From assembly GCA_011056825.1 (NCBI GenBank), contig DSBH01000137.1, forward strand, positions 1 to 25,269: 25,269 nucleotides of DNA, given 5' to 3'. Shown here piece after piece: positions 1,758 to 25,268 of this stretch. Numbering within the stretch: position 1 is the first letter of the stretch; every line of letters begins with the position of its first letter. The notes beneath the pieces are model-generated. The model did not search any database. It saw only the letters and a program-made list of their open reading frames with translations, and was not told where the DNA came from. Position numbers and translations under genes: made by a program. This DNA comes from Deltaproteobacteria bacterium (lineage in GTDB: Bacteria > Desulfobacterota > Syntrophia > Syntrophales > UBA2210).

Positions 1758-2483
1758 TCATTGATAAAAACGCACCCGGCAGTTCAACCCCGCCGGCAGG
1801 CGGTGGCCTGGATTGGGAAGCCGCACGCGGACGCCGAAGGTGCCGCTTGCCGCGTCTATGACTTCGTCGACGATTACGACCGTGCCGTCGTACGACCCGC
1901 CGACCGGTTCCTGCGGATGTACTTCGGCCTTCATCCCTTTTTCGATTGTTCCGTAATATTCGACGGGCACCACGACTTCCACATTCAACGGATCGATGCG
2001 GACTATTTTCATGATCGACCCTTCGCCGATGTACTCACCCGGACCGAGGTGTCGCTCCACTACGATGCCGTTCACGGGACTCGTGATCGTTCGAAGTTTC
2101 AGCCGCTCTTTCGCCTCCCGCAACTGGAGCTCCATGACGAGAACTTCTGTTTCCATTTCGTCCTTTTCATGGCTCGAAATGAGCTGCTTCTCGTAAAGCT
2201 CCTCGTTCCGACGGACCCGGCGCCTGCCGAACTCCAGGCGTGCCTCGGCAAGCTCGACCTGGGCCTTTTCAACACCCGATTTCAGGAGTGCAAGTACCTC
2301 TCCCTTCTTTATGCGGTCGCCGCGCTCGACGACGACCCGCTCGATAATACCCGGCTCCTGGCTGCTCACCTCGATAAGATCGCTCGGTTCCATAAGCCCC
2401 CGGTGAAACAGATCCTCGGCGACGCCGTCCGCCGGCCAGAAACAACACACTGCCAAGCATATCCACAGGAAAATATTTTTCAT
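1758..2483 (-). CDS. Efflux RND/HlyD-type periplasmic adaptor (membrane fusion protein), 241 aa, with N-terminal signal-like segment
   Basis: MKNIFLWICLAVCCFWPA signal-like N-terminus. Lipoyl halves IEVSSQEPGIIERVVVERGDRIKKGEVLALL and ITSPVNGIV, a coiled coil, VIDAASGTFGVRVRL and LPAGLNCRV. ATG 2483 has AAGGA and lies 7 nt after the SecA stop. Confidence 0.9.
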   Translation of the reverse strand: MKNIFLWICLAVCCFWPADGVAEDLFHRGLMEPSDLIEVSSQEPGIIERVVVERGDRIKKGEVLALLKSGVEKAQVELAEARLEFGRRRVRRNEELYEKQLISSHEKDEMETEVLVMELQLREAKERLKLRTITSPVNGIVVERHLGPGEYIGEGSIMKIVRIDPLNVEVVVPVEYYGTIEKGMKAEVHPQEPVGGSYDGTVVIVDEVIDAASGTFGVRVRLPNPGHRLPAGLNCRVRFYQ

Positions 2484-2490
2484 GATCCTT

Positions 2491-4497
2491 TCACTCGCTC
2501 CTTCCGGAAAACGACAATGTGTCGCTTCGTTCCTCGTCGTACCGGAGCAATCGTTTGCGGACTCCCGCGTGGACCCTTTCCACCCGCCGCTGGGCATTTT
2601 TCATGACTCGCCTTCCCATCGGTCCCCACAGGTTCGAACCGCTCCTGTTCATTATCTGTAACGCCCTGCCGGACAGGCCTTGATACCCGTCCCGCATCAG
2701 CGGATCCTCGAAAGAGATAAAAACCTCGCATCGACCGGGCTCCCCCTGGCGTCCGCAACGACCCGCGAGCTGGCGGTCGATGCGCCCGGCCTCGTGTCGC
2801 TCTGTCATGAGAACGTGCAATCCTCCCAGGTCGGCCATGCCCCGGTCAAGTTTAATGTCCGTTCCCCGTCCCGCCATGTTCGTGGCGATGGTGACGCGTT
2901 CCGGCTCACCGGCCCGGGCCACGATGAGCGCCTCCTCCCGATCTTGCTTCGCGTTTAACACCTGGTGCGGAATACCCCGGCCGTCAAGGAGCCGGCTCAG
3001 GCGTTCCGAAGCCGCGACGGTTCGTGTCCCGATGAGTACCGGCACGCCGCGCCCGTGAAGCGTTTCCACGCGTTCCGTGACGCGCTCATATTTTTCGTCC
3101 AGCGTGCGGAACACCTCGTCGCGGATTATTTTTCTTTTGAGGGGCCTGTTGGTGGGAATGCGGACAATGGGAAGACCATAGATGGACCAGAGTTCCCTCC
3201 GGACTTCCCGGGCCGTCCCCGTCATGCCGGACAATTTCAGGTACCGGCGGAAAAAACGCTGGTAGCTGATGCGCGCGACCGTTTCCCGCTGCCCCGTTAT
3301 ATCGCATCCCTCCTTGGCTTCTATAAGCTGGTGCAGGCCGCCTTCCCAGGACCGGTCGGGCATCACCCGCCCGGTAAATTCGTCGATGATCTGGACCTTC
3401 CCGTCGCTCACGAGGTACTGTTCGTCACGACTGTACAGGTGCAGGGCCGTCAGGGCTTTCCGGGCCAGTTCCTCGCGTCTGATGGGACTCTGCCAGACAG
3501 GCCCCATGTTTTCCGTCGCCAGGCGGATTTCTTCACGGCCGCCGTCCGTCATGACAATAGCCCGCACGGCCTGGTCGGCTTCGTACTCGATGCGGTAGTG
3601 AACCTTTTCCTTCAGGTTCCCCGCAATGGCCAGTGCCTGTTTCATCGTCCGTTCTTCGTCCGCCGACACGTCGCTCCGCGATATGATGAGCGGCGTCCGG
3701 GCCTCATCCACCAGGACGCTGTCCGCTTCATCCACGATGGTGTAGTGAAGCCCGCGCAGGAGCAGCCGGTCGCTTCTCCCCTCTCCCCGGGACAGGTGCT
3801 CGGCATGGAGTTGAAGCTCGTCGACGATGTCGCCCAGGGTAATGCGGTCTCTCAGGTAATCGAACACCACTTCCTTGTTGGTGCAGTACGTGATGTCGCA
3901 TCCGTAAGCGGCGCGTCGCTGGGCGGGCGTCTTGTCATGAACGACGCACCCGACCGAGAGGCCGAAAAAGCGGTACAGCTCGCCCATGAGCCCGGCATCG
4001 CGGTCCGTCAGGTAGTCGTTGACGGTGATCACGTGAACCGGTATGCCGGCCAGGGCCACCGTGGCCGCGGGCAGTGTCGCCACCAGCGTTTTGCCCTCGC
4101 CCGTTTCCATTTCCGCCAGCAGTCCCTTTAACAGGGCGTATCCTCCCATGAGCTGGCAGTCGAAATGTCGCATTCCCAGGACCCGTGTGGCGGCCTCCCT
4201 GATGAGGGCGAAAGATTCCCCGACCAGCGGCGGCGAAAATCCCTCCATACGCATCCTCCGCCGCAGGGGCCCGCTCCGTTCCTTCAGTTCATCATCCGAA
4301 AGCCTGTCCAGTCCCTCGGCCGCCTTCTCCACGCGCCCGATGATCCGTTTCAGCAACACCGCGCGGCCGCTCCAGGGGCGAACGAAGTATCCCGCAGTCT
4401 CCCACGCCATCCGGTCGAGGAATGTCTTGCGTCCCTCTTTTTTCTCCGGTCGGGCGAAGTGATCGGCCCGGGGCCAGTTTGAAACGGATCCGAACAT
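2491..4497 (-). CDS. secA: SecA-family ATPase, short paralogue (668 aa) lacking most of the HSD/HWD/IRA1 C-terminus
   Basis: AEMETGEGKT (Walker A), VHVITVNDYL, VFDYLRD, IVDEADSVLVDEARTPLIIS, NMAGRGTDIKL, ERHEAGRIDRQLAGRCGRQGEPG. The ORF ends shortly after AQRRVERVHAGVRKRLLRYDE, which is the start of the helical scaffold. It is not the housekeeping SecA. Confidence 0.93.
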   Translation of the reverse strand: MFGSVSNWPRADHFARPEKKEGRKTFLDRMAWETAGYFVRPWSGRAVLLKRIIGRVEKAAEGLDRLSDDELKERSGPLRRRMRMEGFSPPLVGESFALIREAATRVLGMRHFDCQLMGGYALLKGLLAEMETGEGKTLVATLPAATVALAGIPVHVITVNDYLTDRDAGLMGELYRFFGLSVGCVVHDKTPAQRRAAYGCDITYCTNKEVVFDYLRDRITLGDIVDELQLHAEHLSRGEGRSDRLLLRGLHYTIVDEADSVLVDEARTPLIISRSDVSADEERTMKQALAIAGNLKEKVHYRIEYEADQAVRAIVMTDGGREEIRLATENMGPVWQSPIRREELARKALTALHLYSRDEQYLVSDGKVQIIDEFTGRVMPDRSWEGGLHQLIEAKEGCDITGQRETVARISYQRFFRRYLKLSGMTGTAREVRRELWSIYGLPIVRIPTNRPLKRKIIRDEVFRTLDEKYERVTERVETLHGRGVPVLIGTRTVAASERLSRLLDGRGIPHQVLNAKQDREEALIVARAGEPERVTIATNMAGRGTDIKLDRGMADLGGLHVLMTERHEAGRIDRQLAGRCGRQGEPGRCEVFISFEDPLMRDGYQGLSGRALQIMNRSGSNLWGPMGRRVMKNAQRRVERVHAGVRKRLLRYDEERSDTLSFSGRSE

Positions 4498-4519: not shown

Positions 4520-6667
4520 CTACAGGTTGAAGGTTTTCATGAAAACACGGCGTAAAGTACGATACCACTGGGACGCGAGTGTTTCGGATTCGTGTTCGAA
4601 TCGCAGGTGCACCCGGGCCCCGAGCCTGTCCTCGATACGCTCGTCCAGCTCGACTTCGAAGTAAAACAGGGGTTCGAAGGAACGTCGCGCCTCGCTTTCC
4701 CGTGGATCGAGAGCGAAGGAACCGCCTCCTTCCAGCGCGAAGGCCAACGTCGGCAGTTCCGTCGAAGCCGCCGGCATTTCCCTCACCAGCCGGGCTGGAA
4801 TGCTCTGAAAAACGCGGCCCGCCGGGCGTGCCGTCACGGAACGGACATCATGGCGGATCTTGCCCACCTGGACCTGGGAAACCGGCACGAGCACGGAAAG
4901 TTCTTCGTAATTCACCACGTATCCCAGTTCTTCACCACGGCGGATGAAACGCCCCGGCAGATCAACGGCGTTGGGAAGAATAAACAGGCCGTCCCTGGAA
5001 CTGCTGACAACCAAGGCGTCCCGGCGCTCACGCGCCACTTCCAGCTCCTCTTCGATAAGGACGACCTCTTCACGCAGAATCCGCTCCTCCGTGCGGTCCG
5101 TGGCAAGGGCTTCACGGTGACGGGCCTGGTATTCCCGAAGTCTGGCCTCCAGCACTTGGACCTCTTTCTCGATATCGGGATTTTTCAGGATCATCAGGGC
5201 GTCTCCGCGCCCCACGGGCGAACCGGGCAATGCCACGATTTCTCGAACTGTTCCGGAAGCACCCGCGCGGACCCGCGCCTGCTCGTCCGGCCAGAAGACG
5301 CCTTCCGCCATGGTGGTCGAGGGAACCCGAACGAAAAATACCAGAGCGAGAACCACCGCGGCGCATCCAAGCGAGAAAGCGACGATACGGGCGCGCCTTT
5401 TGTACAGTTCCGGGTCTGATACCACGGTCCTGATAACCCTGAAAAACGGAACGGCCACAAGACCCACCAGGGCCCACAGGGCGATAAGAACGCCTATGAA
5501 AAAGAATTTCCCCGACACGAAGAGCGCGATCCGTATGCTGATGAAAATCCGGTAGATGAAGGACGCGATACTGTACGTAACCAGCCACGCCGCCTCACGG
5601 CCGTCGGCGAGGGAGAAACGCGCCTCGTCGTTCCTGATAATGTACCGTTGCGCCAGGTACCCGACATAGCGGTTCGAGCGGTTTCCCAAGTTGGGTATTT
5701 CCAGCAGATCCGCCAGCACGTAATAGGCATCGAAACGAAGCAGCGGATTCCCGTTGAAAAATATGGTGGAGACGCCGGCGACGAGCATGACGTTGAAAGC
5801 GACCGCCCTGACGGCGCCCGGTTCCAGGTTGACCCAGAGAATCATCGCCAGCGACGCGATGAGCATCTCCGCGGCAATACCGATGAATCCAACGACCATC
5901 CTTCGTTTCTTGTCTCTGAACGCGGACGCCGTCGACGCGTCGAGGTAGGGAACGGGCACGAACACGAGCAGCATGATGCCCATTTCGTGCACCTCGCCGC
6001 CCCAGTGTTTCACCGACCAGGCGTGGGCGAATTCGTGAACGGTTTTGACCACGGGATAAATGAACCAGAGAAGAACCAGGTTTTCCAGGGCCAGCACCCG
6101 GTCGGCGAGATTCATGGTCAACTCGTCCCAGTGCATGACGGCGAGCGACACAGCCGTCACAACCAAAACCGACCAGGCTATTAAGGCGTAAACACTGAAA
6201 AAGGGTGCCGCCAGTTTCCTGGTTCGTTCAAGAAAACGGTCAGGATCCAGAAGAGGAATGCGGACCGCCACGGGAGAGCGTATCCGGCTCAAGAATTGCT
6301 TTTTTTTGTCCTCTCGGCTGCGGTGCTGAATATTGCCGACGTCCGGCGCTGTGTCCGACCTGAGAACGTCGGCCTGGTTCAATTTCGAAACCAGGGTAAT
6401 CACTTCTTCCTGCGTGGGCATGTCGTCACCGAGATGCAGGCAGGCGGCTTCCCATATTTCCTGGAGCGTGCGTGACCCGTCCATGAGACCGATCAGGTAA
6501 TAGGCTTCCTCGGTGAAGCGGTGGAACCGTCCCGTCGAGTGATCCTGGAGCACATACCAGGCCTCTCCCCTGAAGGTGTGGCGGTGAATTTCCGCGTGAC
6601 CCCGCAGAATGGGCCTGAGACCCGCGACGCGGTACCAGGAACTGCTGTAAAGGTTTTTTTCAGACAT
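4520..6667 (-). CDS. PqqD/RRE-like domain + M50 (site-2) zinc metalloprotease + membrane fusion protein fusion, 715 aa
   Basis: N-terminal YYLIGLMDGSRTLQEIW...EEVITLVSKL (PqqD-like winged helix). HEFAH (HExxH) sits in a hydrophobic segment, with NGNPLLRFDAYY (NP..D third ligand) and several TM stretches. C-terminal lipoyl/coiled-coil region VRAGASGTVREIVALPGSPVGRGD. Confidence 0.88.
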   Translation of the reverse strand: MSEKNLYSSSWYRVAGLRPILRGHAEIHRHTFRGEAWYVLQDHSTGRFHRFTEEAYYLIGLMDGSRTLQEIWEAACLHLGDDMPTQEEVITLVSKLNQADVLRSDTAPDVGNIQHRSREDKKKQFLSRIRSPVAVRIPLLDPDRFLERTRKLAAPFFSVYALIAWSVLVVTAVSLAVMHWDELTMNLADRVLALENLVLLWFIYPVVKTVHEFAHAWSVKHWGGEVHEMGIMLLVFVPVPYLDASTASAFRDKKRRMVVGFIGIAAEMLIASLAMILWVNLEPGAVRAVAFNVMLVAGVSTIFFNGNPLLRFDAYYVLADLLEIPNLGNRSNRYVGYLAQRYIIRNDEARFSLADGREAAWLVTYSIASFIYRIFISIRIALFVSGKFFFIGVLIALWALVGLVAVPFFRVIRTVVSDPELYKRRARIVAFSLGCAAVVLALVFFVRVPSTTMAEGVFWPDEQARVRAGASGTVREIVALPGSPVGRGDALMILKNPDIEKEVQVLEARLREYQARHREALATDRTEERILREEVVLIEEELEVARERRDALVVSSSRDGLFILPNAVDLPGRFIRRGEELGYVVNYEELSVLVPVSQVQVGKIRHDVRSVTARPAGRVFQSIPARLVREMPAASTELPTLAFALEGGGSFALDPRESEARRSFEPLFYFEVELDERIEDRLGARVHLRFEHESETLASQWYRTLRRVFMKTFNL

Positions 6668-6682: not shown

Positions 6683-8530
6683 TCACGGCCACCACGACCA
6701 CGTCTTGAGCCGAAACCACTCGAAGAGGGGCCGCGTCCATATGCTCACGAGAAGCCGCCGGTCGACTTCTATCTTCCCCACCCCTTCCATGCCGGGCCTG
6801 AGGGCCGGCGACACCTCGTCGAGAGCGGCCTCCACGCGGAAATAATTACTTCCTTCTTCCGCCGTCGTAACGGGCGTTATCTTTTCCACCGAAAATTCAT
6901 AGTGCTGTGTCGGCAACGCCGACAGCACCAGGATTCCCCGCTGTTCCTCGGTCACGTCAGTGATGCGTGTTTCATCGACCTTGAGTATAAGGCGATAGCT
7001 GTCCAGCGGAGCTATACTGAAGAGTTCTTCCCCCTGTCGGATGGAACTTCCCAGGCGCTGACTGAGATCGCCGCTCAGCAGGATGCCGTCGAAAGGCGCC
7101 CGAATGTTGACGCGTTCAAGTTTGCTTTCCGCCAGTTCCAGCTGCGCCGCCGCCTGGTCGAGCTGCGCTCTTATCACGTTCGCCTCGGCGCGGTCCCCCC
7201 GTGCGACGGCCTCCTGGAGCTGGCTCTGATACTGATTCTTCTTGCTGAACCACTGGAGCCGTTCGAGGCGTAGATCCCTGTCGTCAAGCGCGCAGAGCAG
7301 GTCATTCCCGGCCACCACGTCGCCGGCTCGAACTGGCGCCGACTTGATGAAACCGTCGAAAGGCGCGACGACCGAACGCTGCACGGCGCCTTCAAGAACG
7401 GCGTCCGCTTTAATCCGGTATTCGCCTTTCGCAAAGGACAGCACCACGGCGAGAAGAACCATCGCCAGAAGCAACGCCTTCCTGCCCGCATAGCCGGCTC
7501 CGAAGAGCCGGATCGCCTGACGCTTCAGCGAATCGAACATGACAAAAACAACAGGCCTGTCCTGGTGGTGCTTGTCTTCGAGGGCGGGTCCCGAAAGGGC
7601 AACCACGCTTTTCACGTAAGCGAGTTCGGCTTCGGTAAAGGGGATATCTTTCTGGCGCTCCAGGGTAAGGGCGCCGTAGTAGCGATCTTTCGCGAAGAGC
7701 GGGACCGTCATGACCGACCGGCTGCCGTGCTTGTCTACAAGCTGTTCATGATCGCGGAGAACAAAGACGGGTGAATCAGGAAGCGGCGGGTACATGATCT
7801 CGGCCCTCTGGCTGACGGCCTCGTCCATGGCCGCCCCGACGGCGCGGTGAAGATTCATTTTACCACCCACCACCGCCGAATGGGAAACCGCTTCCACCCT
7901 GGCGTATTTTTTCCTGACGATACCCAGGCTCACGCGATCGCAGGACAGTCTCGTCGCGAGCGTGGTAACAAAGGCCATGGCGGCGCCGTCGAAATGTTCT
8001 TCCGCCAGAACGCCGGCAAGAATCTCGACGGCGGCCTTCATGCGGTCCAGCGCGGCCATGTCTTCACTGTTGCGCAGGCGGCGGTAATAATTTTCAATCC
8101 ATACCGCCCCCCACTTGAGGCTTTCCATGGCGGGTCGGAGCCGATCCTCGGACCCCGCGACTTCCACAGCTACGGCTCCCAGGCAATCGCCGTCCACGAC
8201 AACCGGGTAGGCAAGTCCGTAACGGGCGGCGCCGTCGACACGGGGAAGGTCGACAAGCATTCCCTCCTTCTCGGCAAGCGTCTGTTCAAGCACATCTGCC
8301 AGGCGTTCGCCGCCGTCGCTTCCCTCCGGCCAGGAAGCAACGGGAAGGTACTGCCCGCGACCGGGATCGCGCAGGACGAGAAACGCCTGGACGCAGCCCT
8401 CGATCGCCCCACACTGAATGGCGAGCCAGGAACTGAAAAACGCTTCCCGGTCCGCCAAACTATCGAGACCGGCCCAGTTGCTGACCGTTTTCCCCGAATC
8501 AATGACCTGTTCTTCGGAGCGAGATTCCAT
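6683..8530 (-). CDS. GAF-GAF-TM-HlyD periplasmic adaptor subunit, 615 aa
   Basis: GAF-like strands YGLAYPVVVDGDCLGAVAVE and SVMTVPLFAKDRYYGALTLER. One TM (ALLLAMVLLAVVLSFA). MFP region VVAPFDGFIKSAPVRAGDVV...IRAPFDGILL...LRPGMEGVGKI. Confidence 0.88.
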   Translation of the reverse strand: MESRSEEQVIDSGKTVSNWAGLDSLADREAFFSSWLAIQCGAIEGCVQAFLVLRDPGRGQYLPVASWPEGSDGGERLADVLEQTLAEKEGMLVDLPRVDGAARYGLAYPVVVDGDCLGAVAVEVAGSEDRLRPAMESLKWGAVWIENYYRRLRNSEDMAALDRMKAAVEILAGVLAEEHFDGAAMAFVTTLATRLSCDRVSLGIVRKKYARVEAVSHSAVVGGKMNLHRAVGAAMDEAVSQRAEIMYPPLPDSPVFVLRDHEQLVDKHGSRSVMTVPLFAKDRYYGALTLERQKDIPFTEAELAYVKSVVALSGPALEDKHHQDRPVVFVMFDSLKRQAIRLFGAGYAGRKALLLAMVLLAVVLSFAKGEYRIKADAVLEGAVQRSVVAPFDGFIKSAPVRAGDVVAGNDLLCALDDRDLRLERLQWFSKKNQYQSQLQEAVARGDRAEANVIRAQLDQAAAQLELAESKLERVNIRAPFDGILLSGDLSQRLGSSIRQGEELFSIAPLDSYRLILKVDETRITDVTEEQRGILVLSALPTQHYEFSVEKITPVTTAEEGSNYFRVEAALDEVSPALRPGMEGVGKIEVDRRLLVSIWTRPLFEWFRLKTWSWWP

Positions 8531-8619: not shown

Positions 8620-8976
8620 TCAGGCATTCCCTTTCCCCGCCGGATTGACATCACCCGTTTCGAGGCTGATCTCGCCGTAACGCTCTTCGTACTGGCGGAT
8701 TACGTTCGACAGGAGCAGGGCCATGCGCTTTGCCGCGAAAGGATTGAGAATGATACGATCGCTCATATCGACTGTCAATTCACGCTGCTCGGGATTCCAG
8801 GTCTTGTTTATCCCGAAAAGAACGGTAAATTCTTCGCGGGTGCTGGACACGTTGCACACGTTGGCGTAGCTGGTTCTCATGTTCGCCACGTCCCACTTGA
8901 TGGTTGTCTTCATGTCTTCCGGACCGACGGTGGCCGTTCCCTGCTTTTCGTCTATGTCTTTTTTCTGTGCTGCCAT
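8620..8976 (-). CDS. DUF3467-family small protein (118 aa)
   Basis: SYANVCNVSSTREEFTVLFG...RIILNPFAAKRMALLL...YEERYGEI is the recognised DUF3467 pattern. RBS GGAGG lies upstream of ATG 8976. Confidence 0.85.
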   Translation of the reverse strand: MAAQKKDIDEKQGTATVGPEDMKTTIKWDVANMRTSYANVCNVSSTREEFTVLFGINKTWNPEQRELTVDMSDRIILNPFAAKRMALLLSNVIRQYEERYGEISLETGDVNPAGKGNA

Positions 8977-10170: not shown

Positions 10171-10231
10171 GCAATCCTCCTGTAAATACGTACCGTGTTC
10201 ATCGCCGTCGTATCGCACGCACCGATGCTTG

Positions 10232-10260
10232 TTGTACATCGGGCGCATACGTATTATACT
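10232..10260. promoter_or_regulatory. Candidate overlapping divergent promoters (kinase on +, methyltransferase on -)
   Basis: Plus strand: TTGTAC (10232-10237), 17 nt, TATACT (10255-10260). Minus strand: perfect TATAAT at 10258-10253 without a well-spaced -35. Confidence 0.4.
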
Positions 10261-19800: not shown

Positions 19801-22800
19801 GGTGAACCGTCGGAATCGGTCACCTGCAAGGTATCACCGGACACAAAAACGGTGTAAAAATCATCGATGATAGCCGCGAGTCCTTCGGCCACGTCGTCAA
19901 GATCGCTGTCGGAGCCTTGAACCACGTAACTGTCATAGGTGACGCCGTCGATAGTCAGTGTCCACACATCGTTCTCGGCGAAAGACCCGTCGAGCTGAAT
20001 ACCGGTGACCCAGTCGCCTGCAACCCGACCGTTAAAATCGGCGTCACCATCAACGGCAGCTGGAGTAATCGTGAAATTGATGTCCACGCTGACGTCCTCA
20101 ATCGTCAGCGTGTTCGTGTCGGCATTATACGAGGCGGATGCGCCGATATCGCCGGCAAACCAGGCACCGATATCGTCGACATCGATAACTCCGTTACCAG
20201 CCCCGACTGTATAGTCATCAGCGACCACATGGGTGTATGTAGTCTCCGTGCCGTTCAGCGGCGTCATCGTCAGGGACCATTCTTCACCCGCGTTGACCGT
20301 TCCGTCCAGGACAATGTCGGCCTGAGAATAATGACTGGCGGTACTGCCGGCCTCATTGAAATTCAATTCCCCCGGCTCTGGGGCGGCAACGCCGGCTTCG
20401 GCGGTAAAGGCCGTTCCGTCCGTTTTTGTCACCGTAAGTGCGCCGGCACCATCGTAAAGAACCGTGAAGTCCGCGGGAATAGCGGGCGTAGTCGTGTTGG
20501 TTGCAGTGGCAAACGCATCTCCCACATCATCGATATCATCACCTGTCTGAACAATATATTTATAAGCAACGCCGTCCAGGGTCAGGGTCCAGGTTTCGTC
20601 TACCTGGGCCGAGCCGCCCAGGGTAAAAACAGCCTGTTCGTAATCACCATCCGTACTATTGACTTCGTTGGCAAAAGTTACCGTTCCGCTGCCGCCTACG
20701 GTAAAGTCATAAGAAACAAACCCGTCTGCGTTGGAAACCGCCAGAGTATCGCTGTCGCCATTATAGGTAACCGTGAAGCCCGCATCTGATATATCCGTAT
20801 TGTTCTCAAACCATTGTCCCACCTCGTCTACATCTTCAATATGGGAGGCGGGAGGACCGGTCGTTGTCGTGGTGCAAGTATAGGCCACGCCATCAAGGGT
20901 AAGGATCCATTCTTCACCACTTGACGCATCCGCCACGGCCGTGCCGGACAGGTCAATATCAACGGACTCCAATGCCGGGGAACTGCTGTCCAGGGCTATC
21001 GTCCCCTGAACAGATGCGGCGGTAACGCTGAGGGCGACATTGACGCCGTCGGCATCCGTGATGGTCAGGGTCTTTGCGGTATCGTCATACGAAGCGGAAG
21101 CGCCGATCTCATTTTCAAACCAGCCGCCGACATCGTCAATATCGACATCCAGGTCTCCGTCGAAATCGTAATCTGCGATGGTATCATCATAACTATAGCT
21201 TGTAACCGTGTCATCCGCCGCAGTCAGGGTCAGAACCCAGGTTTCCCCTTCATGCACCGGTCCGGACAGATTCACCACCGCCTCGGACCAGTAGCTCACG
21301 TTGCCGCTGACACTCTGCGTAGCGCCGGCCGGCGCCTCGGTGACTTCCAGGTCGACGGTGAAACTCTCTCCGCTGTCTCTGCTTACTGTCACGGCATCGC
21401 CGTCCGCGATGATTGTATAGCCGGCCGGTGCGGCACCCTCGAGGCCGTCGGCGATATTCGCGAGGGAATCACCGTAGGCGACCTCGTAAGCGCTGCTCGC
21501 GCCGTCGGGAAGATTCAGGGTCCACATCTGGTTGTGAACGGCCGTACCGACAAGGTTCAGGGTAACCTCCTGCCAGGAGGTCGCCTCCGCCTCATTGGTG
21601 TCGAGCGACGTGCCGGTAATCGCCGCGGTCGCCGACGGGCTGGTCCCGGCTTGCTGAAAGCCCAGGGTAAAGCCGGCCGCGTCGGTCAGCCGCAGGGTAT
21701 CATCGCCGATCCGCTCCGGCGCGTACCCGGCGTCTATACTGGCCACCAGTCCGTCGATAACGTTTACCAGCGTATCGTCCGTCTGTACTTCATACTCAAC
21801 GGGATTGCCGTTTATCACCACCGTCCACACATTCCCGTCCACGGGGATGATCGGATCGAATGTGATATCCGCGGCGGAAAATTTCACTCCTCCGGTGGCC
21901 AGCGTCCGCGTGACGGTTCCCGCCGCCTGGACCTCCTGGGTTACGCCGCCGAACAGGAAGCCGTTGGGGTCTTCGATATCCATAACCGTCGAATCGGTTT
22001 CGTTCAGAGAAGCGGTGTAGGTATCATAGACGTCGGTATCATCATTAATTTCACCCGCCAGGCCGTTGATCACGTTGGCCATGGTGGTGTCGGTATCCGC
22101 GACGGTATACGAGTATTCTTCCCCGTTGAGGGTTATCGTCCAGACATCACCTGGCGTGACGTCACCGTTCAGCCTGATGCCCGCTTCGAGATAGTACGTA
22201 CCCCCGGCCGTTTCGCCGCTCACCACGCCCGCCGTAGGCTGGAGCATGCCTTTGGTGATCTCGAAGGAATAATTGTCCCAGGTGCCGTTGCCGTTGCCGA
22301 TGACTGAAGTATAGGCGGTGTAGTAATCGATGAACCCGCCTTCCGGATTTTCCCGGTCGCCGATATCGGGATTGAAATAGGTGTACCAGTAATCGTCGAC
22401 GTCGATATCCTGGGCGGCATTGTTACCCGCTTCATCCTCATACTGCGGCTTCGCCTCGAAGGTGAAGGTATCCACTTCGTGGTTCTCCAGCGAGACATGA
22501 AGATCGTAGTCCGCGCCGGGGGGTATTTCCTCTCCCTTTCCCAACAACCATCCCTGCATGTCGCTTACTTTAACCAGATAGGTGCCCGGCTCGGACAGAT
22601 CCGCCTCCAGGTATGCGTCGAACCAGGTCGAGCTGACGGCCGCTCCATAGTCCGGGTCACTCAAGAACCCGTCTCCAACGGTGTTCCCGTCCGGACCGGT
22701 CAGTTTCAGCGCGGACATCCACCAGACCGAATCGGCCCCCGTAACGGGATCAATTTCAAAGCCATGATCGACATCGAGGACGACGTTGACAGAACCGGAC

Positions 22801-25268
22801 GATAAATCGAGCATCTCCTGGGTTACTTCAAAGGAAAAATAGTCAACGCTGTCGTCACCGGTGGCCCGAACCGTTATATGCGGTATATCCCGGGAAGTGT
22901 TCGCGACGGTATCGCCTATCTCGTCGCTGTAATTCAGTCCCCAGTCTCCCAGTTCCAGGTTCTGCGCGACATACTGTGAATCGTTCCCGGCGAGTTCATT
23001 AATCACTGATGTACCGAAATCGGCCACAATCGACGTGTCGCCCGCATTCGCCGTCTGGCTGGCCTGTCCCTCTCCGAGGACGACTTCCTCGGTCGGCTCG
23101 ACCACGTCGGTGGAACCGCCGTCCTGGAACACATAAATCCCCGGAGTACCGTCAATAATTTTCACATCCACGTGGGACGCGTCGACACCGTCGTAATTGG
23201 TGCCTTCCGTGGTGGAAACATCATGGGTAACGCGGGCGAAATGGGTGCCTTCGGCAACGCCGTCGTCGACAGCACGGACATAGACATCCTGCTGCGTATC
23301 CCAGTTGCCGGGCGTAAAAATCAGTGAGTCGACCGGATTGCCGTCCACGTCCTCAAGCTCGATCTGGCCGTCGGACAGGTCGTTGAGCGTGACCGTCACA
23401 TCGGCGTCCGGCATGGAGCTCAAGACCACCGAATAGCGATCCCGTTCCGCGATCTCGCCTTTTTCGAATACCACCGTCTCGTTCGCCTGCTGGGCGATTA
23501 CCACACCGGGAGTGTCGTTATCCACCACTTCGACCGTCAGGCTCGTGGTTGCCAGACCGTCATAAGCATCTCCGTCATCCGGCGACCGCCCCTGGGCGAC
23601 GCTGTGCTTGATCTCGTAGGTCTGCAACCCTTCGGCGATATCGTCATCGACCGCCGTTACGGTGATGATCTGTTCGTTGAACCAGTTGGTGTCATCGAAC
23701 AACAGGGTGACGCCTTCTTCGTTGCCGTTGAGAGCTACTCCCCTGGCTCCTTCTTTCATAGCCTCTTCCGGGGGAAGGGTGGCGCTGGCCGTCACCCGCA
23801 CATCTTCTTCCGGCGGGCGCGTCAGCGCGATTGCGTACTGGGCCATGATCATGCCCGCGGGGGCCGCGGCACCGTCCTCGAACACCCGCAGGGACCCTTC
23901 AAGCATGCGCACAACGATGCCCGCTTCGTCGGCGTCGGCCACATTGACGGACACGTCCCCGGCGAAAACGCCATCGTAGTCCGACGTACCGTCGGTGCTG
24001 CTCGCCAGCAGTTCCACCAGTCCGCTGTGACCCAGCAGATCATTGCTCACCACCGAAATGGGCTCCCCGTTTGTCCCGCCTCCCACGTTGAAACTGTCGC
24101 TGCCCAGCCCGCCGATAAGGGAGGTCTCCACATATTCATTCGTTGAAGCGATGAAGAACGTATCGTTCCCCTCCAGGGCGTTGACGACCACTTTTTCAAT
24201 ACCGCCATACTTGACGAATAACCCGGCACCGTACACACCTCCGTCGGTCACGACGAAGTCATCGCCGAATTCGGTACCCACAACAGTCAAGGTATCCAGT
24301 CCGTCGCCACCCTGGATATTTACGGGGGCGTTTACGGTGTAGGAAATAAAGTCGGCGCCCTGACCACCGTTGATGTTGGTAAACGGCGCTTTGATATCAT
24401 CGGGGTCAACTTTGACAAAGGCCCTGATGATGAACGTGTCGTTGTCTTCATCGCCGTTGAGAGAAAGGGTTGCCAGGTTTCGATAGACCGTGAAGGAATC
24501 CTCACCGATACCGCCGTTGAGGGTCGCGGCGTGGCTGATGCCGTTTGACAGGTATCCCTTCGTGGTCAGGGTGGTGTCAAAACAGTCCTCGGGGGCGAGA
24601 CCGGCGGCTTCGTCCCGGGGTGACTGGAACATCTGTCCCACCTGGAACGTGTCATCACCTTCGTCGCCGTACACGGTCACCGGAGAGTTGGTATCGTCGA
24701 ACACGAAGGTATCGTCACCCTGCCTGCCGTAAACGTACACGCCGGCGTTGATATCGCCGTTGTAGTTGACCCGCTCCACGACGCCGTTTTCTACCGGGAC
24801 CCGGTTTTCATCCATTTCCAGGCTCATGATGGCTCCCGGCCTGAACAGGAAATAATCGGTTTCATCAGTGGCGTAAATCCGGAGGCTGTCGTTGCTCAGG
24901 TCGCCGCCGGGGCTCTCGTCGTAGACGTTAAACAGAGCCGCGCCGTCCCCGTATAGTTCGATCTCGTACAGATCGCTGCCGCCGTACCCCGTCAGGGTCA
25001 CGGCGCCGGTGATGCCGTAGAGCGGGTGAACCATGGGGAAATGGTCGTCGTCACTGTTACCGTAGATAAAAGCCTCGGTACCGATGACCGTTCCCGTGAT
25101 ATCGACCGCGCCGCCGTCGGCATCCGTTCCGGGGACGCCGTAATCGACGTACATGATGACATTTCCGGCGGCTTCAACATCTCCGTAAATCCAGAGGTCG
25201 TCGCCGGCCCGCAGGATAACGTCGCCGGTTTCGGCCCGCAGCACGACACCCTCGGGAATGATGATGTC
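13890..25268 (-). CDS. Giant acidic secreted/surface protein (>3,790 aa; 5' end outside the window) with RTX-like Ca-binding repeats, Calx-beta-like and PPC-like domains
   Basis: One reading frame is open to the right edge (DIIIPEGVVLRAETG...). Many GGxGxD/GxDxxxxGDNG repeats. Three YxxxLxxxP...FTxxNW...QxVxVxAxxD units. Two PPC-like units ending L.NH. Strongly Asp/Glu/Thr/Gly-rich. Confidence 0.93.
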   Translation of the reverse strand, partial: DIIIPEGVVLRAETGDVILRAGDDLWIYGDVEAAGNVIMYVDYGVPGTDADGGAVDITGTVIGTEAFIYGNSDDDHFPMVHPLYGITGAVTLTGYGGSDLYEIELYGDGAALFNVYDESPGGDLSNDSLRIYATDETDYFLFRPGAIMSLEMDENRVPVENGVVERVNYNGDINAGVYVYGRQGDDTFVFDDTNSPVTVYGDEGDDTFQVGQMFQSPRDEAAGLAPEDCFDTTLTTKGYLSNGISHAATLNGGIGEDSFTVYRNLATLSLNGDEDNDTFIIRAFVKVDPDDIKAPFTNINGGQGADFISYTVNAPVNIQGGDGLDTLTVVGTEFGDDFVVTDGGVYGAGLFVKYGGIEKVVVNALEGNDTFFIASTNEYVETSLIGGLGSDSFNVGGGTNGEPISVVSNDLLGHSGLVELLASSTDGTSDYDGVFAGDVSVNVADADEAGIVVRMLEGSLRVFEDGAAAPAGMIMAQYAIALTRPPEEDVRVTASATLPPEEAMKEGARGVALNGNEEGVTLLFDDTNWFNEQIITVTAVDDDIAEGLQTYEIKHSVAQGRSPDDGDAYDGLATTSLTVEVVDNDTPGVVIAQQANETVVFEKGEIAERDRYSVVLSSMPDADVTVTLNDLSDGQIELEDVDGNPVDSLIFTPGNWDTQQDVYVRAVDDGVAEGTHFARVTHDVSTTEGTNYDGVDASHVDVKIIDGTPGIYVFQDGGSTDVVEPTEEVVLGEGQASQTANAGDTSIVADFGTSVINELAGNDSQYVAQNLELGDWGLNYSDEIGDTVANTSRDIPHITVRATGDDSVDYFSFEVTQEMLDLSSGSVNVVLDVDHGFEIDPVTGADSVWWMSALKLTGPDGNTVGDGFLSDPDYGAAVSSTWFDAYLEADLSEPGTYLVKVSDMQGWLLGKGEEIPPGADYDLHVSLENHEVDTFTFEAKPQYEDEAGNNAAQDIDVDDYWYTYFNPDIGDRENPEGGFIDYYTAYTSVIGNGNGTWDNYSFEITKGMLQPTAGVVSGETAGGTYYLEAGIRLNGDVTPGDVWTITLNGEEYSYTVADTDTTMANVINGLAGEINDDTDVYDTYTASLNETDSTVMDIEDPNGFLFGGVTQEVQAAGTVTRTLATGGVKFSAADITFDPIIPVDGNVWTVVINGNPVEYEVQTDDTLVNVIDGLVASIDAGYAPERIGDDTLRLTDAAGFTLGFQQAGTSPSATAAITGTSLDTNEAEATSWQEVTLNLVGTAVHNQMWTLNLPDGASSAYEVAYGDSLANIADGLEGAAPAGYTIIADGDAVTVSRDSGESFTVDLEVTEAPAGATQSVSGNVSYWSEAVVNLSGPVHEGETWVLTLTAADDTVTSYSYDDTIADYDFDGDLDVDIDDVGGWFENEIGASASYDDTAKTLTITDADGVNVALSVTAASVQGTIALDSSSPALESVDIDLSGTAVADASSGEEWILTLDGVAYTCTTTTTGPPASHIEDVDEVGQWFENNTDISDAGFTVTYNGDSDTLAVSNADGFVSYDFTVGGSGTVTFANEVNSTDGDYEQAVFTLGGSAQVDETWTLTLDGVAYKYIVQTGDDIDDVGDAFATATNTTTPAIPADFTVLYDGAGALTVTKTDGTAFTAEAGVAAPEPGELNFNEAGSTASHYSQADIVLDGTVNAGEEWSLTMTPLNGTETTYTHVVADDYTVGAGNGVIDVDDIGAWFAGDIGASASYNADTNTLTIEDVSVDINFTITPAAVDGDADFNGRVAGDWVTGIQLDGSFAENDVWTLTIDGVTYDSYVVQGSDSDLDDVAEGLAAIIDDFYTVFVSGDTLQVTDSDGSPVTAEKIEQLRVAAGSRTADNSPDTRDHWINADITLQKEGLVLEGELWTVTVHGNAYEYTAQETGETLSHIASELASVLDAAPELDGVVVSVSGAEISLTGLAGDTVEPTRGDGTVQGIFDIDYGNVLESIIQEPVYTEYVLFDGTTIELRTSVVNHELLTSLYLQLVDNESNEVLATSNYSDWVDKGSNTAYDPFLEYTFEEDGFYRIEVGSYTDSLDDYVADVIAGVKTGLSYQLNATLQNHIINPNVISLQGKTLTITEGTGQGQTFTIDDYAPETSTFTFDSALTEAVDHTSRFEVTYDIMALTGYAETTDSFTVVLTSPPAEGETVTVDVAAIATRTYNSDLAFDDEANNGEREAIQVYVNGVESDSLTFTVDNWSVPQEVTVNAIHDNVVDGSDAQVFPAMEERTASIRGPLEIEGGVVVSEELILEDPYMLPGETNELVPDGDIESTGTDGDGKATLTDNDITHYDPESGDVSGGFDPRMNHALYRVKILDGDLAGTVMDVESVNGNTVTFTRDWPDGVAPAAGVHYYYMPINPNTLVDEADQVDTLSVFNGDSPSNDAGVLTADRLYGLGMGPDTVIGGEIIPGGIQYGNLEALNLELGYGNDTLTVESTHHGATHISAGDGTDEITVKTITGHTTIDAGEGVDTVYAGSDSGMMDQINGLLTIEGGGDADHAYIDDSGDDSDNAGTLMQTTLTGLDMPTVEEVQTISVRAEGGSYLMATAGFGTDAGMADSVNVTRTADSATVEVGFDLYNNDSAMLRERLEELYGVNGGIDVTETINGATKTYTVTFSGALAGMDMPQLTWAETWDDTGLEIGSLDISPDVEVAVIEDGTTASLLNTVQTLTVNAGGSAAGTYRIGLRGFEAVYNAHHDWMDYVYDPDNTENIVWTDPIAYDAGADDVYAGLAPILNPNNSRDDLPWTNNVAVRKVDNVLFITFQGAYADLEIEHGDVDATGLTDVDIILDTRLNGINYYNLEGLDVDLGSGNDRFNVEGTAFGTPTSVTTGNGNDSINVYNPERSLDDILGELSVDTMGGSNTLNVDGSGDTVADTATITNAAIIGLAPADINYQSTGGNMAGGITIWSGTAGDTITVDSTHRTDGVRTITTLNTNDGDDDVTVSLNAATDGFFAVNTQAGDDTVDGSASSLPLVIFGGAGMDEIDGGSGDDIIFGDRGRVYYRDDTGDVVTSLGNGAPVVGDTIEVTSSWDFSAETDPLSISRVIRLEGGAENGETWSIEIHDETGEVIATAEYTVADDQVETVESIAGQLAFLLNDDLAAQGIEHYSVAADGIHLVITNAGGYPVFSVSHGVRTEDRTDGVDRTPSNVLTIDPAVGGIDTISAGDGNETIIGGFGIDAITAGTGDHVVFGDNGRVDYDTDGALKVLETTDTEIDSAYGDDDTITITGDGNNHILGGMGSDTISTTATTIGTTDVILGDNGRVEYAGPVGGLELSLIESTVLSRGGNDTIETGDGEKYIVGGFGADIITAGVGDHVVMGDNGRVNYDTDGAPKVLETTDTVDHPEYGGDDTITLGSGDGVIFGGMGSDEITTHDGTEVIFGDNGRVEYAGPVGGLELSLIESTLPLEGGDDTITTGNGMKYIVGGFGSDKIITGTGSDILIGDNGVVEYDEDGLPETVYSTWPDVGGVDTLETTADTNILIGGTKGDFIYGGSGRDAIFGDSGEVTLLNGVWHTLEATDYFIGGDDFMDGGAGNDVMMGGAGNNIFAGSLSEDIMIDTYGRVTFTPDASKVTSVIRLDTTSLIANVMTELEGGKDIGEIPEVETVGDREFADEGWLFGSFQEWGVSGAGINLAGHKGSYGLAGTGDEQTDQPRDHHGLSQAPSAGEGEPSIPESETPPGEEPPIEEEATEENTSHAGEAPEGAGNSGGETNEGTEEDESSDEEEEGNGEGGSADAGTAAVASMMGWKVLAGGSLGTRAATGVIDRESFRELAARQDKKRFKRWTSVGL
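14935..15690 (-). repeat. Intragenic tandem duplication of a ~123-128 codon double RTX-like unit
   Basis: Identical 49-mer at 15070-15118 and 15439-15487 (period 369). Near-identical blocks at 15240-15303 and 15624-15687 (period 384). The protein repeats GDNGRVEYAGPVGGLELSLIEST twice. Confidence 0.85.

What the first reader, a model, noticed from the sequence alone, without database searches (positions are those of the whole stretch)
1758..25268. Candidate ABC-independent, SecA-paralogue-powered T1SS-like export system for a giant protein
Seen: DUF3467, GAF-GAF-MFP, RRE-M50-MFP, short SecA and MFP are co-oriented and closely spaced (7-22 nt between the last four), downstream of a >11 kb RTX-like gene. 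Established: classical T1SS uses one MFP, an ABC ATPase and TolC; SecA normally works with SecYEG; M50 enzymes are membrane proteases. Inference: three different MFPs form the periplasmic conduit, the M50 membrane domain replaces the ABC membrane domain, and the SecA paralogue supplies the motor. I recall similar SecA/M50/HlyD neighbourhoods being annotated elsewhere but know of no characterised mechanism.
Basis: partly seen in the sequence, partly recalled or inferred. Interest (0 to 1): 0.85.

Follow-up and report, generated by a model that had tools for sequence, protein, structure and literature searches.

The report
ABC-less export cassette for giant proteins
The window holds a conserved gene set (three periplasmic adaptors, one of them fused to a membrane protease, plus a shortened SecA motor, and no ABC pump) that across many bacterial phyla sits beside giant acidic surface-type proteins carrying an N-terminal "LEPR-XLL" tag. 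It is probably their dedicated, still untested secretion machine, and the gene set itself was already described by computer analysis in 2015.

Summary
On the minus strand lie a 5'-truncated giant RTX-like gene, four tailoring-type genes, then DUF3467, GAF-HlyD, RRE/M50-HlyD, a 668-aa SecA paralogue and a small HlyD adaptor, with 15, 22 and 7 nt between the last four. Only one GAF domain is detectable.

Synteny is strongly conserved. In 80 species-level loci, SecA' follows M50-HlyD in 65/68, GAF-HlyD precedes it in 65/66, and a ≥1000-aa ORF lies upstream in 33/50. An ABC signature occurs within ±10 kb in 1/37.

TolC lies directly upstream of the giant gene in this MAG (contig C109) and in four other genomes. 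The giants carry the orphan N-terminal LEPR-XLL domain (NF012209). It co-occurs with the cassette: 8 genomes with both, 2 and 1 with one only, 121 with neither.

That paper does not mention the cargo link, the conserved cargo termini, DUF3467 or the tailoring genes. This scan has flagged the same cassette on other DNA many times (113 notes, at least 74 genomes).

Best reading: a TolC-linked, SecA'-powered, leader-guided exporter and processor of giant proteins.

The parts
13890..25268 (-). 3' part (3792 aa) of a giant acidic RTX-like protein, the presumed cargo. The 5' end is lost at the contig end.
   Evidence: ORF. HemolysinCabind. pI 4.05, 2 Cys and 14 RTX-like nonapeptides. No TM segment. 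Homologous giants of 6215-18499 aa lie upstream of the cassette elsewhere.
13893..14045 (-). Conserved C-terminal module of about 50 aa in the cargo (A.G..GW ... R[LF][DN] ... [RK][RK][FYW].[RK]W).
   Evidence: A profile built from 7 seed sequences finds 20 giant C-termini, rising to 22 of 35 after iteration, and none of the interior 120-aa windows.
12706..13818 (-). DUF3467 domain (N-terminal, about 80 aa) fused to an ABBA-prenyltransferase-like domain. Accessory tailoring gene.
   Evidence: Pfam DUF3467 E 1.8e-7. ESM Atlas structure matches to PTase_Orf2 and Trp_DMAT clusters, TM 0.56-0.65 over residues about 60-368. Recurs in L008, L012, L018, L064, L073 and L075.
11782..12699 (-). Radical SAM enzyme (accessory tailoring gene).
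   Evidence: PF04055 E 2.8e-19. The best NCBIfam hit, HxsC4 (86 bits), is below its cut-off. A homologue lies next to SapC and the giant gene in Neptuniibacter.
10908..11774 (-). Conserved protein of unknown family (about 288 aa), partner of the radical SAM gene.
   Evidence: No Pfam or NCBIfam hit. Homologues sit beside rSAM in L008, L012, L018 and L106.
9109..10248 (-). O-methyltransferase (accessory). Also present in the second cassette copy of this MAG.
   Evidence: Methyltransf_2 E 3e-20. 66% identical copy on C300. Also in L004, L005, L008, L018, L031 and L036.
8620..8976 (-). Free-standing DUF3467 protein (118 aa). Soluble. Candidate cargo adaptor or chaperone.
   Evidence: PF11950 E 7e-26. 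Present in 28 of 50 loci. AF2 model shows three strands plus a long helix, pLDDT 72. No convincing structural match, SecB included.
6683..8530 (-). GAF-HlyD adaptor: cytoplasmic N-terminal region of about 350 aa with one GAF domain, one TM segment (352-370), and a periplasmic membrane-fusion domain.
   Evidence: Pfam GAF and HlyD_3/HlyD_D23. TM segment. Adjacent to M50-HlyD in 65 of 66 loci.
4520..6667 (-). RRE-like domain, then a polytopic M50 (site-2-type) metalloprotease, then a HlyD adaptor. The only polytopic membrane protein of the operon.
   Evidence: NCBIfam daptide_HExxH 149 bits. PqqD 17.5 bits, and PF05402 is precomputed on several homologues. HEFAH211 and NGNPLLRFD305-313 are invariant. 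AF2 gives a beta3-alpha3 N-domain at 25-98, helices at 142-445 and an MFP at 447-715. 7-8 hydrophobic segments.
2491..4497 (-). SecA paralogue (SecA', 668 aa) with NBD1, PPXD and NBD2. It ends about 35 residues into the helical scaffold, so there is no wing domain, two-helix finger or C-tail.
   Evidence: Pfam. Aligns to T. maritima SecA residues 17-646 of 871. GEGKT133, DEAD256, GRGTD543 and GRCGRQG579 are intact. Forms a clade separate from housekeeping SecA, SH-aLRT 100, median length 666 aa. Conserved tail LSFSGxxE.
1758..2483 (-). Small membrane-fusion (HlyD/RND-adaptor-type) protein with an N-terminal signal or anchor.
   Evidence: TIGR01730 130.7 bits, above its cut-off of 94.9. Hydrophobic segment at 4-22. 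Present in 60 of 63 loci.

Best explanation
The region is one copy of a widespread, experimentally untested envelope-spanning export and maturation machine for giant, acidic, cysteine-poor, RTX-like proteins that begin with the LEPR-XLL leader.

Proposed working model. Steps 1 and 2 rest on context evidence. Steps 3 to 6 are inferred.
1. The cargo is the neighbouring giant protein. Its N-terminus is a basic stretch followed by LEPRxLLSAD.
2. TolC, encoded just upstream of the cargo gene, is the outer-membrane duct. The three HlyD-type adaptors (GAF-HlyD, M50-HlyD and the small MFP) build the periplasmic tube.
3. The cytoplasmic RRE-like domain of M50-HlyD binds the leader, and the M50 active site removes it.
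4. The oligomerised M50 transmembrane domains, together with the single TM helices of the other adaptors, provide the inner-membrane passage in place of ABC transmembrane domains.
5. SecA' keeps an intact ATPase and the preprotein clamp but lacks the SecY-engaging parts. It threads the unfolded chain, probably N-terminus first and possibly while translation is still going on. Ca2+-driven folding of the RTX repeats outside acts as a ratchet.
6. DUF3467 is a cargo-binding adaptor. In this window it is also fused to a prenyltransferase-like enzyme. With the radical SAM enzyme, its partner ORF and the O-methyltransferase, this would tailor the cargo before export.
For: Synteny:
- SecA' is adjacent to M50-HlyD in 65/68 loci, GAF-HlyD in 65/66, and the small MFP is present in 60/63.
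- A >=1000-aa ORF lies upstream in 33/50 loci, across Desulfobacterota, Alpha-, Beta- and Gammaproteobacteria, Rokubacteria, Nitrospira and Bacteroidota.
- Full operons contain giants of 9009, 6215, 9829 and 18499 aa.

TolC: it lies immediately upstream of the giant gene in this MAG's C109 and in Desulfoluna, Thiomicrorhabdus, Vibrio (with SapC) and G035.

Cargo tag:
- NF012209 scores above its cut-off on every giant N-terminus examined.
- C109 reads FESLEPRLLLSAELG.
- LEPR-XLL and the orthologous M50-HlyD co-occur: 8 genomes with both, 2 with LEPR only, 1 with M50 only and 121 with neither, out of 132. Fisher p = 2e-10, although kin are not independent.
- All 5 genomes reached through loci carry the LEPR hit on the cassette-adjacent giant.

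No ABC exporter.

Components look functional:
- SecA' ATPase motifs are intact. The truncation and the C-terminal tail motif are conserved. Each of the five genomes reached through loci (and this MAG, on contig C37) also has a normal SecA.
- M50 catalytic motifs are invariant.
- The closest named relatives of the protease are RiPP leader peptidases.
- DUF3467 occurs fused to tailoring enzymes.

Independent hint from another organism: an acquired secA is co-expressed with LEPRxLL giants, SapC and TolC in Chlorochromatium (bioRxiv 10.64898/2026.03.19.712371).
Against: - There is no experimental evidence anywhere. In M. extorquens the operon was barely expressed in exponential phase (PMC4452313).
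- The window's own giant gene lacks its 5' end. Contig C109 cannot be joined to the window (no overlap). The MAG has two cassette copies and at least two giant genes, so which cargo N-terminus belongs here is unknown.
- About a third of loci show no giant ORF within the upstream flank.
- RRE assignment is weak in the window protein: 17.5 bits, and model pLDDT of 50-74 in that part.
- A conserved C-terminal module directly after the RTX repeats looks like a T1SS-type C-terminal signal. It leaves the direction of transport open.
- Nothing shows that M50 transmembrane domains can form a protein-conducting pore.
- SecYEG could still be used.
Confidence: 0.6

Rival explanations
1. T1SS-like, C-terminus-first export with N-terminal retention. 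The conserved C-terminal GW...RW module after the RTX repeats is the secretion signal. The chain leaves through the adaptor/TolC duct C-terminus first. The LEPR-XLL N-terminus is held in the cytoplasm by the RRE domain, so the adhesin stays threaded through the envelope. The M50 protease cleaves it for release, perhaps under control of the GAF domain. This would be an analogue of LapA retention and LapG/LapD release, located at the inner membrane.
For: - A C-terminal module is present in 22/35 giants and absent from interior windows.
- The layout of RTX repeats, acidic linker and terminal module resembles T1SS substrates.
- A GGDEF gene lies beside the Thiomicrorhabdus operon.
- The GAF domain sits on a cytoplasmic adaptor arm.
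Against: - The C-terminal module is missing in 13/35 giants, whereas LEPR-XLL was found on every N-terminus examined.
- RRE-plus-protease pairs normally act on N-terminal leaders at the start of export. This rests on established RiPP knowledge and the NCBIfam matches.
- SecA normally engages substrates from the N-terminal side.
Confidence: 0.22
2. Two-step route. SecA' delivers the giant to the ordinary SecYEG channel using LEPR-XLL as an atypical signal. M50 acts as the leader peptidase. The three adaptors plus TolC then expel the periplasmic intermediate, as MacAB-TolC does for some peptides.
For: - SecA' keeps NBD1, PPXD and NBD2, which make part of the SecY interface.
- Other accessory SecA2 proteins with reduced C-terminal domains still use SecYEG (established knowledge; PDB 4UAQ is listed).
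Against: - SecA' lacks the whole scaffold/wing region, including the two-helix finger that inserts into SecY.
- LEPR-XLL has no hydrophobic core of signal-peptide length.
- No adaptor-only TolC system is known to lack an inner-membrane energised partner (established knowledge).
- Two of the three adaptors carry large cytoplasmic domains, which suggests cytoplasmic substrate capture.
Confidence: 0.1
3. The cassette is a RiPP-type maturation and export system for a small peptide or a small molecule, and the giant gene is only a frequent neighbour.
For: - The RRE-like domain, the M50 protease related to daptide and epipeptide leader peptidases, the radical SAM enzyme and the methyltransferase all resemble RiPP clusters.
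Against: - The tailoring genes occur in only about 4-6 of 37 fully flanked loci, whereas giants and LEPR-XLL track the cassette closely.
- No conserved small precursor ORF was seen.
- TolC is placed next to the giant gene.
Confidence: 0.04

Closest known systems
'Secondary SecA_DEAD' conserved locus of Kamneva, Poudel & Ward 2015 (PLoS One 10:e0129066, PMC4452313), e.g. M. extorquens AM1 META1p2402-2399
   Same: The gene set is the same: GAF/HlyD, Peptidase_M50/HlyD, a SecA_DEAD protein without the wing-scaffold domain, HlyD/biotin-lipoyl, sometimes OEP, and no ABC. The hypothesis is also the same: SecA_DEAD as the ATPase and the M50 membrane domain as the pore. Methylobacterium and Methylorubrum loci are orthologous to the window's cassette.
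   Different: The paper names no cargo. It does not mention giant, RTX or LEPR-XLL proteins, DUF3467, SapC or an RRE domain. The window additionally carries a tailoring block (DUF3467 fused to a prenyltransferase-like domain, rSAM, unknown ORF, OMT), and the MAG has two cassette copies.
Type I secretion systems for RTX proteins and giant adhesins (HlyB-HlyD-TolC; LapB-LapC-LapE with LapA, LapG/LapD)
   Same: Both use TolC-family duct and HlyD-family adaptors. The cargo is giant, acidic and cysteine-poor with RTX repeats. Genes for cargo and machine are clustered. A protease may act on the cargo N-terminus.
   Different: There is no ABC transporter. Instead there are three different adaptors, a SecA-derived ATPase and an intramembrane M50 protease with an RRE-like domain. 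The cargo has a conserved N-terminal leader (LEPR-XLL), which classical T1SS substrates lack.
Accessory SecA2 systems (mycobacterial SecA2, SecA2-SecY2/aSec of Gram-positives)
   Same: A second, specialised SecA paralogue sits beside a housekeeping SecA and is dedicated to particular, often very large, surface proteins.
   Different: SecA' scores below the cut-off of every SecA2 model. It lacks the wing domain, the two-helix finger and the C-tail. There is no SecY2 or Asp partner. It occurs in diderm bacteria, coupled to HlyD and TolC.
RiPP leader peptidases of the M50 type (daptide HExxH intramembrane protease NF041824; YydH/LiaK NF058609) and PCAT exporters
   Same: An HExxH intramembrane metalloprotease with an N-terminal leader-recognition region. 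Leader removal is coupled to export.
   Different: Scores are below the family cut-offs (149 against 300, and 32 against 225). The protease is fused to a HlyD adaptor. The presumed substrate is a protein of thousands of residues, not a peptide.
SecA_DEAD + PPXD domains without scaffold/wing embedded in giant Omnitrophota and Actinobacteria proteins (West-Roberts et al. 2023, bioRxiv 10.1101/2023.11.21.568195)
   Same: A wingless SecA module associated with giant proteins and proposed to help export them.
   Different: There the SecA module is part of the giant protein itself, and the neighbours are type II secretion-like genes. Here it is a free 668-aa protein in a HlyD/M50/TolC operon.

Membership tests
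Secondary SecA_DEAD locus (Kamneva et al. 2015) | SecA_DEAD/PPXD protein lacking all or most of the wing-scaffold domain, in addition to a canonical SecA | tested here: met
   668 aa, with only 29 residues matching SecA_SW. Ends at T. maritima SecA position 646. Housekeeping SecA is on C37.
Secondary SecA_DEAD locus (Kamneva et al. 2015) | Adjacent Peptidase_M50/HlyD, GAF/HlyD and HlyD/biotin-lipoyl proteins | tested here: met
   Gaps of 15, 22 and 7 nt. The same order is found in 65/66-68 loci, including Methylobacterium and Methylorubrum.
Secondary SecA_DEAD locus (Kamneva et al. 2015) | No ABC transporter in the locus; OEP sometimes present | tested here: met
   No ABC signature in the window's ORFs. 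1/37 in flanked loci. OEP is on C109 next to a LEPR-XLL giant N-terminus.
Type I secretion system | Dedicated ABC transporter (HlyB/PrtD/LapB type) as inner-membrane component | tested here: not met
   No TIGR01846 hit over the cut-off in this MAG; the best is 371 bits on C57. None near the cassette in 5 genomes. 1/37 loci carry any ABC signature. The MAG is only 80% complete.
Type I secretion system | HlyD-family membrane fusion protein | tested here: met
   Three HlyD-type proteins. None reaches the TIGR01843 cut-off.
Type I secretion system | TolC-family outer membrane factor | tested here: met
   PF02321 on C109 at 1028-2281, directly before the LEPR-XLL giant start. The same position is seen in 4 other genomes. 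It is not inside the window itself.
Type I secretion system | Uncleaved C-terminal secretion signal after GG/RTX repeats | tested here: inconclusive
   RTX repeats are present. A conserved C-terminal module occurs in 22/35 giants, but its role as a signal is untested.
Accessory SecA2 (TIGR03714, TIGR04221, TIGR04397, NF012136) | Score above the family cut-off, with full-length architecture including IRA1/two-helix finger | tested here: not met
   489 against 930, 438 against 725, 572 against 1085 and 417 against 1100 bits. The C-terminal domains are absent.
LEPR-XLL domain proteins (NF012209) | N-terminal motif of about 24 aa, LEPRxLL(S/F)A, on a very large protein | tested here: inconclusive
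   The window's giant lacks its N-terminus. A giant N-terminus with the motif (34.7 bits, cut-off 17) is on C109 of the same MAG. All syntenic giants examined carry it.
Daptide-type HExxH intramembrane leader peptidase (NF041824) | Score above the equivalog cut-off; HExxH and downstream Asp ligand | tested here: not met
   149 bits against a cut-off of 300. The catalytic motifs are present and invariant. It is related to the family but not a member.
SecB-type chaperone (as a possible identity of DUF3467) | SecB fold | tested here: not met
   AF2 model of three strands plus one helix. No SecB among the Foldseek or VIA matches. The best matches are COMM-, Pur-alpha- and PC4-like at Z<=5.2, which is within noise.

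The most novel reading that the evidence does not exclude
A distinct secretion system class in diderm bacteria: an N-terminal leader (LEPR-XLL) is read by an RRE domain and clipped by a fused intramembrane protease. A wingless SecA feeds the chain, possibly co-translationally, straight into a three-adaptor/TolC duct. This would solve the problem of exporting proteins of 6,000-36,000 residues without first finishing and storing them in the cytoplasm. In the variant seen here, DUF3467 acts as a cargo-docking domain that recruits prenyltransferase-like, radical SAM and methyltransferase enzymes. That is RiPP-style tailoring logic applied to a giant protein.
Probability: 0.3. Interest if true: 0.9.

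Novelty: new member of a known kind. Interest (0 to 1): 0.6.

Why it matters
If the model holds, this would be a secretion pathway outside the numbered types. It would combine parts of three known systems: a Sec motor, a T1SS conduit and a RiPP-style leader peptidase.

It would also explain how hundreds of bacterial species export their largest proteins. Among them are marine symbionts such as Endozoicomonas and Kistimonas, rhizobia, methylotrophs and sulfate reducers, and probably the Chlorochromatium consortium giants.

It would give a function to the orphan LEPR-XLL tag, to DUF3467 and perhaps to SapC. It would also provide a simple genomic marker for predicting giant surface or adhesion proteins and their export genes.

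The hypothesis is directly testable in cultured organisms that carry the cassette.

Tried and rejected
- DUF3467 as a SecB-like chaperone. The structure model and two PDB-wide fold searches gave only weak COMM-, Pur-alpha- and PC4-like similarities. Rejected as unsupported.
- A C-terminal transmembrane or sorting helix in the giant protein, as another first-reader note suggested. No hydrophobic segment appears even at a low threshold. The Ala/Gly patch is instead part of a conserved soluble GW...RW module.
- A second GAF domain. Not detected.
- Joining contig C109 (TolC plus LEPR-XLL giant start) to the window. There is no sequence overlap. A second giant fragment (C17, 5160 aa, 50% identical to the C109 fragment) shows at least two giant genes in the MAG.
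- A nearby or genomic T1SS ABC exporter. Not found.
- Promoter and terminator scan of the operon. Counts are no better than in shuffled sequence.
- Correlation between DUF3467 presence and the C-terminal module. By inspection the split is 15/7 against 7/6, which is no clear link.
- Literature searches for DUF3467, LEPR-XLL and SecA/HlyD/M50 found no experimental study.
- My first strict regular expression for the C-terminal motif missed most cases. It was replaced by a profile search.
Full report
**What is in the window**

The window is the whole of contig C1 of a fragmented MAG: 2.05 Mb, 309 contigs, 80% complete. Its nearest relatives are Desulfosudaceae and 'delta proteobacterium MLS_D'.

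All relevant genes lie on the minus strand:

| Coordinates | Gene |
|---|---|
| 13890-25268 | Giant ORF, 3792 aa visible, 5' end cut by the contig end |
| 12706-13818 | DUF3467-fusion protein |
| 11782-12699 | Radical SAM enzyme |
| 10908-11774 | Unassigned ORF |
| 9109-10248 | O-methyltransferase |
| 8620-8976 | DUF3467 |
| 6683-8530 | GAF-HlyD |
| 4520-6667 | M50-HlyD |
| 2491-4497 | 668-aa SecA paralogue (SecA') |
| 1758-2483 | Small HlyD-type adaptor |

The last four genes are separated by 15, 22 and 7 nt.

The giant fragment is RTX-like: HemolysinCabind at 48 bits and 14 nonapeptide matches. It is very acidic (pI 4.05), has 2 Cys in 3792 residues, and has no hydrophobic segment.

Only one GAF domain is detectable. 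Four genes separate the giant gene from DUF3467.

**State of the components**

*SecA'.* It aligns to T. maritima SecA residues 17-646 of 871 and stops about 35 residues into the helical scaffold. The wing domain, the two-helix finger and the C-tail are therefore missing. Walker A (GEGKT133), DEAD256, GRGTD543 and the arginine-finger region are intact. The housekeeping SecA is on C37.

In a tree, 63 cassette SecA' proteins are separated from 6 housekeeping SecAs by a long branch with SH-aLRT 100. Their median length is 666 aa. They share a conserved extreme C-terminus, LSFSGxxE. The truncation is thus an old, maintained feature rather than decay.

*M50-HlyD.* This is the only polytopic membrane protein of the operon, with 7-8 hydrophobic segments between residues 159 and 446.
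- HEFAH211 and NGNPLLRFD305-313 are invariant in 20 homologues at 48-85% identity.
- Its best named relatives are RiPP leader peptidases. The daptide HExxH protease scores 149 bits, below its cut-off of 300. YydH/LiaK scores 32 bits.
- The N-terminal ~100 residues give a weak PqqD hit (17.5 bits). PF05402 is precomputed on several homologues. The region models as three strands followed by three helices, as RRE domains do, at modest confidence.

*Other components.* GAF-HlyD has about 350 cytoplasmic residues, one TM helix and a periplasmic adaptor domain. The small adaptor has an N-terminal anchor.

**Conserved synteny**

The M50-HlyD family is large: more than 6800 database proteins at E<=1e-5, and at least 585 GTDB species.

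In the 80 best species-level loci:

| Feature | Count |
|---|---|
| SecA' directly follows M50-HlyD | 65/68 informative loci |
| GAF-HlyD directly precedes M50-HlyD | 65/66 |
| Small adaptor present | 60/63 |
| DUF3467 present | 28/50 |
| Same-strand ORF of >=1000 aa within 4.5 kb upstream | 33/50 |
| ABC signature anywhere within about ±10 kb | 1/37 (an unrelated 257-aa ATPase) |

Walking upstream in complete genomes gave giants of 9009 aa (Desulfoluna limicola), 6215 aa (Thiomicrorhabdus sp.) and 9829 aa (Bradyrhizobium sp. DOA9). A fourth genome has an 18,499-aa gene.

No HlyB-type exporter lies near any of five cassettes. None in this MAG passes the family cut-off.

**TolC and SapC**

A TolC-family gene lies immediately upstream of the giant gene in four other genomes:
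- Desulfoluna (E 1e-55) and Thiomicrorhabdus (E 2e-51).
- A Vibrio, followed there by SapC.
- G035.

In this MAG, contig C109 carries OEP at 1028-2281, then a giant ORF from 2339 to the contig end.

SapC also occurs inside the Bradyrhizobium cassette and upstream of the Neptuniibacter giant.

**The cargo tag**

All full-length giants start with a basic stretch followed by LEPRxLLSAD. This matches NCBIfam NF012209 ('LEPR-XLL domain') above its cut-off. C109 reads ...FRFESLEPRLLLSAELG.

In five genomes reached through loci, the only above-cut-off hits (1-2 per genome) include the cassette-adjacent giant each time. None of 14 control genomes has a hit above the cut-off.

In two even samples, LEPR-XLL and an orthologous M50-HlyD co-occur as follows:

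| Sample | Both | LEPR only | M50-HlyD only | Neither |
|---|---|---|---|---|
| 81 genomes of the window's phylum | 2 | 0 | 0 | 79 |
| 51 genomes of the order of Neptuniibacter | 6 | 2 | 1 | 42 |

The pooled Fisher p is 2e-10. This overstates the case because related genomes are not independent.

A second conserved feature is a C-terminal module of about 50 aa: A.G..GW, a Ser/Gly/Lys-rich spacer, R[LF][DN], then [RK][RK][FYW].[RK]W. A profile from 7 seed sequences finds it in 20 giant C-termini, rising to 22 of 35 after iteration. It finds none in the interior windows of the same proteins. The window's giant has the module (13893-14045).

**Prior art**

Notes of this scan pointed to Kamneva, Poudel & Ward 2015 (PMC4452313), which I read. 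The paper describes exactly this locus: GAF/HlyD, Peptidase_M50/HlyD, SecA_DEAD without the wing-scaffold, HlyD/biotin-lipoyl, sometimes OEP, and no ABC.

It already proposes that SecA_DEAD supplies the ATPase and that the M50 membrane domain could form the pore. It states that the biological role is unknown. It does not mention giant, RTX, adhesin, cargo, LEPR or DUF3467. No follow-up exists in the searchable library.

Two preprints touch on neighbouring issues:
- Chlorochromatium giants Cag_663 and Cag_665 carry LEPRxLL N-termini. They have SapC and TolC neighbours and are co-expressed with an acquired secA.
- Wingless SecA modules occur inside giant Omnitrophota proteins.

The same cassette has been flagged many times in this scan on other DNA (113 notes, at least 74 genomes).

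**Interpretation**

The context evidence makes a dedicated export and processing machine for LEPR-XLL giants the best reading. I give 0.6 to the model as stated. I give roughly 0.75 to the bare claim that the giants are its cargo.

Which end leads is open. I favour N-terminal, leader-guided entry for three reasons:
- LEPR-XLL was on every N-terminus examined, while the C-terminal module is missing in 13/35 giants.
- RRE-plus-protease pairs normally act on N-terminal leaders.
- N-first threading would allow export to begin before a 10,000-30,000-residue chain is finished.

The main rival (0.22) is T1SS-like C-first export. There the RRE holds the N-terminus as a retention device and M50 acts as the release protease. 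Use of SecYEG (0.1) and a small-molecule or peptide role (0.04) are less likely.

**Window-specific extras**

The tailoring block recurs in a minority of loci, about 4-6 of 37 fully flanked ones, plus Neptuniibacter.

The C-terminal domain of the DUF3467-fusion resembles ABBA prenyltransferases in the ESM Atlas (TM 0.56-0.65). DUF3467 is also found fused to a halogenase-like protein. This fits DUF3467 as a cargo-docking module.

The fold of DUF3467 itself, three strands plus a helix, has no convincing match. A SecB-like identity is not supported.

The MAG carries a second cassette copy, on C300 plus C165 at about 78% identity. It also carries a second giant fragment on C17, 5160 aa and open at both ends.

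**Verdict**

The window is a new member of a known but experimentally untouched kind. The unpublished added value is the cargo assignment, the two conserved cargo termini, the TolC placement and the tailoring/DUF3467 logic.

Noticed in passing
G000 contigs C300 (1-2567) and C165 (1-5153): A second copy of the cassette is split over two contigs of the same MAG: OMT, DUF3467 and the GAF-HlyD N-terminus on C300; the GAF-HlyD C-terminus, M50-HlyD, SecA' and the small MFP on C165. Identity to the window's copy is 65-85% depending on the gene (about 78% for M50-HlyD and SecA'). These could be true paralogues or a second strain or species in the bin.
   Followed up: partly
G000 contig C17 (2-15481) and C109 (2339-6817): C17 is a single ORF of 5160 aa, open at both ends, about 50% identical to the giant fragment on C109. 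The MAG therefore encodes at least two giant genes, each probably well over 5,000 aa.
   Followed up: partly
window 1694-1732 and about 1330-1375 (minus strand): Two copies of a G/C-rich hairpin element of about 40 nt (CCCCCTCCCCC...GGGGTGGGGGTG), each preceded by a similar 'CGTGTAATACG' stretch. They lie downstream of the last cassette gene and look like REP elements or terminators. The exact core was not found elsewhere in the MAG.
   Followed up: partly
window 8750-8778 (minus strand): An 11-of-12 match to the sigma-70 consensus (TTGACA, 17 nt, TATCAT) lies inside the DUF3467 gene, about 220 nt upstream of the GAF-HlyD start. It could be an internal promoter. The overall promoter count in the region is no better than chance.
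   Followed up: no
L016:15013-16287 (Desulfoluna limicola): A group II intron reverse transcriptase/maturase gene is inserted between SecA' and the small adaptor gene.
   Followed up: no
L107 (Neptuniibacter G002:C5:909000-912700) and L112 (G102:C1:406100-407934): A variant arrangement in which a divergent M50-HlyD (29-35% identity) and a small MFP lie directly upstream of a shorter LEPR-XLL protein (2556 and 2850 aa). Whether a SecA' belongs to these variants was not checked.
   Followed up: no
L090:5296-6459 (Thiomicrorhabdus): A GGDEF diguanylate cyclase gene lies immediately upstream of the tolC-giant operon. This could hint at cyclic-nucleotide control of the GAF-bearing adaptor.
   Followed up: no
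window 3-698 and 569-1267 (plus strand): ThyX (Thy1) and a Zn-ribbon (FmdB-type) gene flank the cassette. The same neighbours occur beside the cassette in 'delta proteobacterium MLS_D' (L004).
   Followed up: no
C-termini of giants in L033, L039, L040, L050, L056, L068, L069, L077: Giants lacking the GW...RW module often end with a zincin-like HExxHxxGxxH segment and/or a short 'IDW' motif. This suggests a second class of C-terminus.
   Followed up: no
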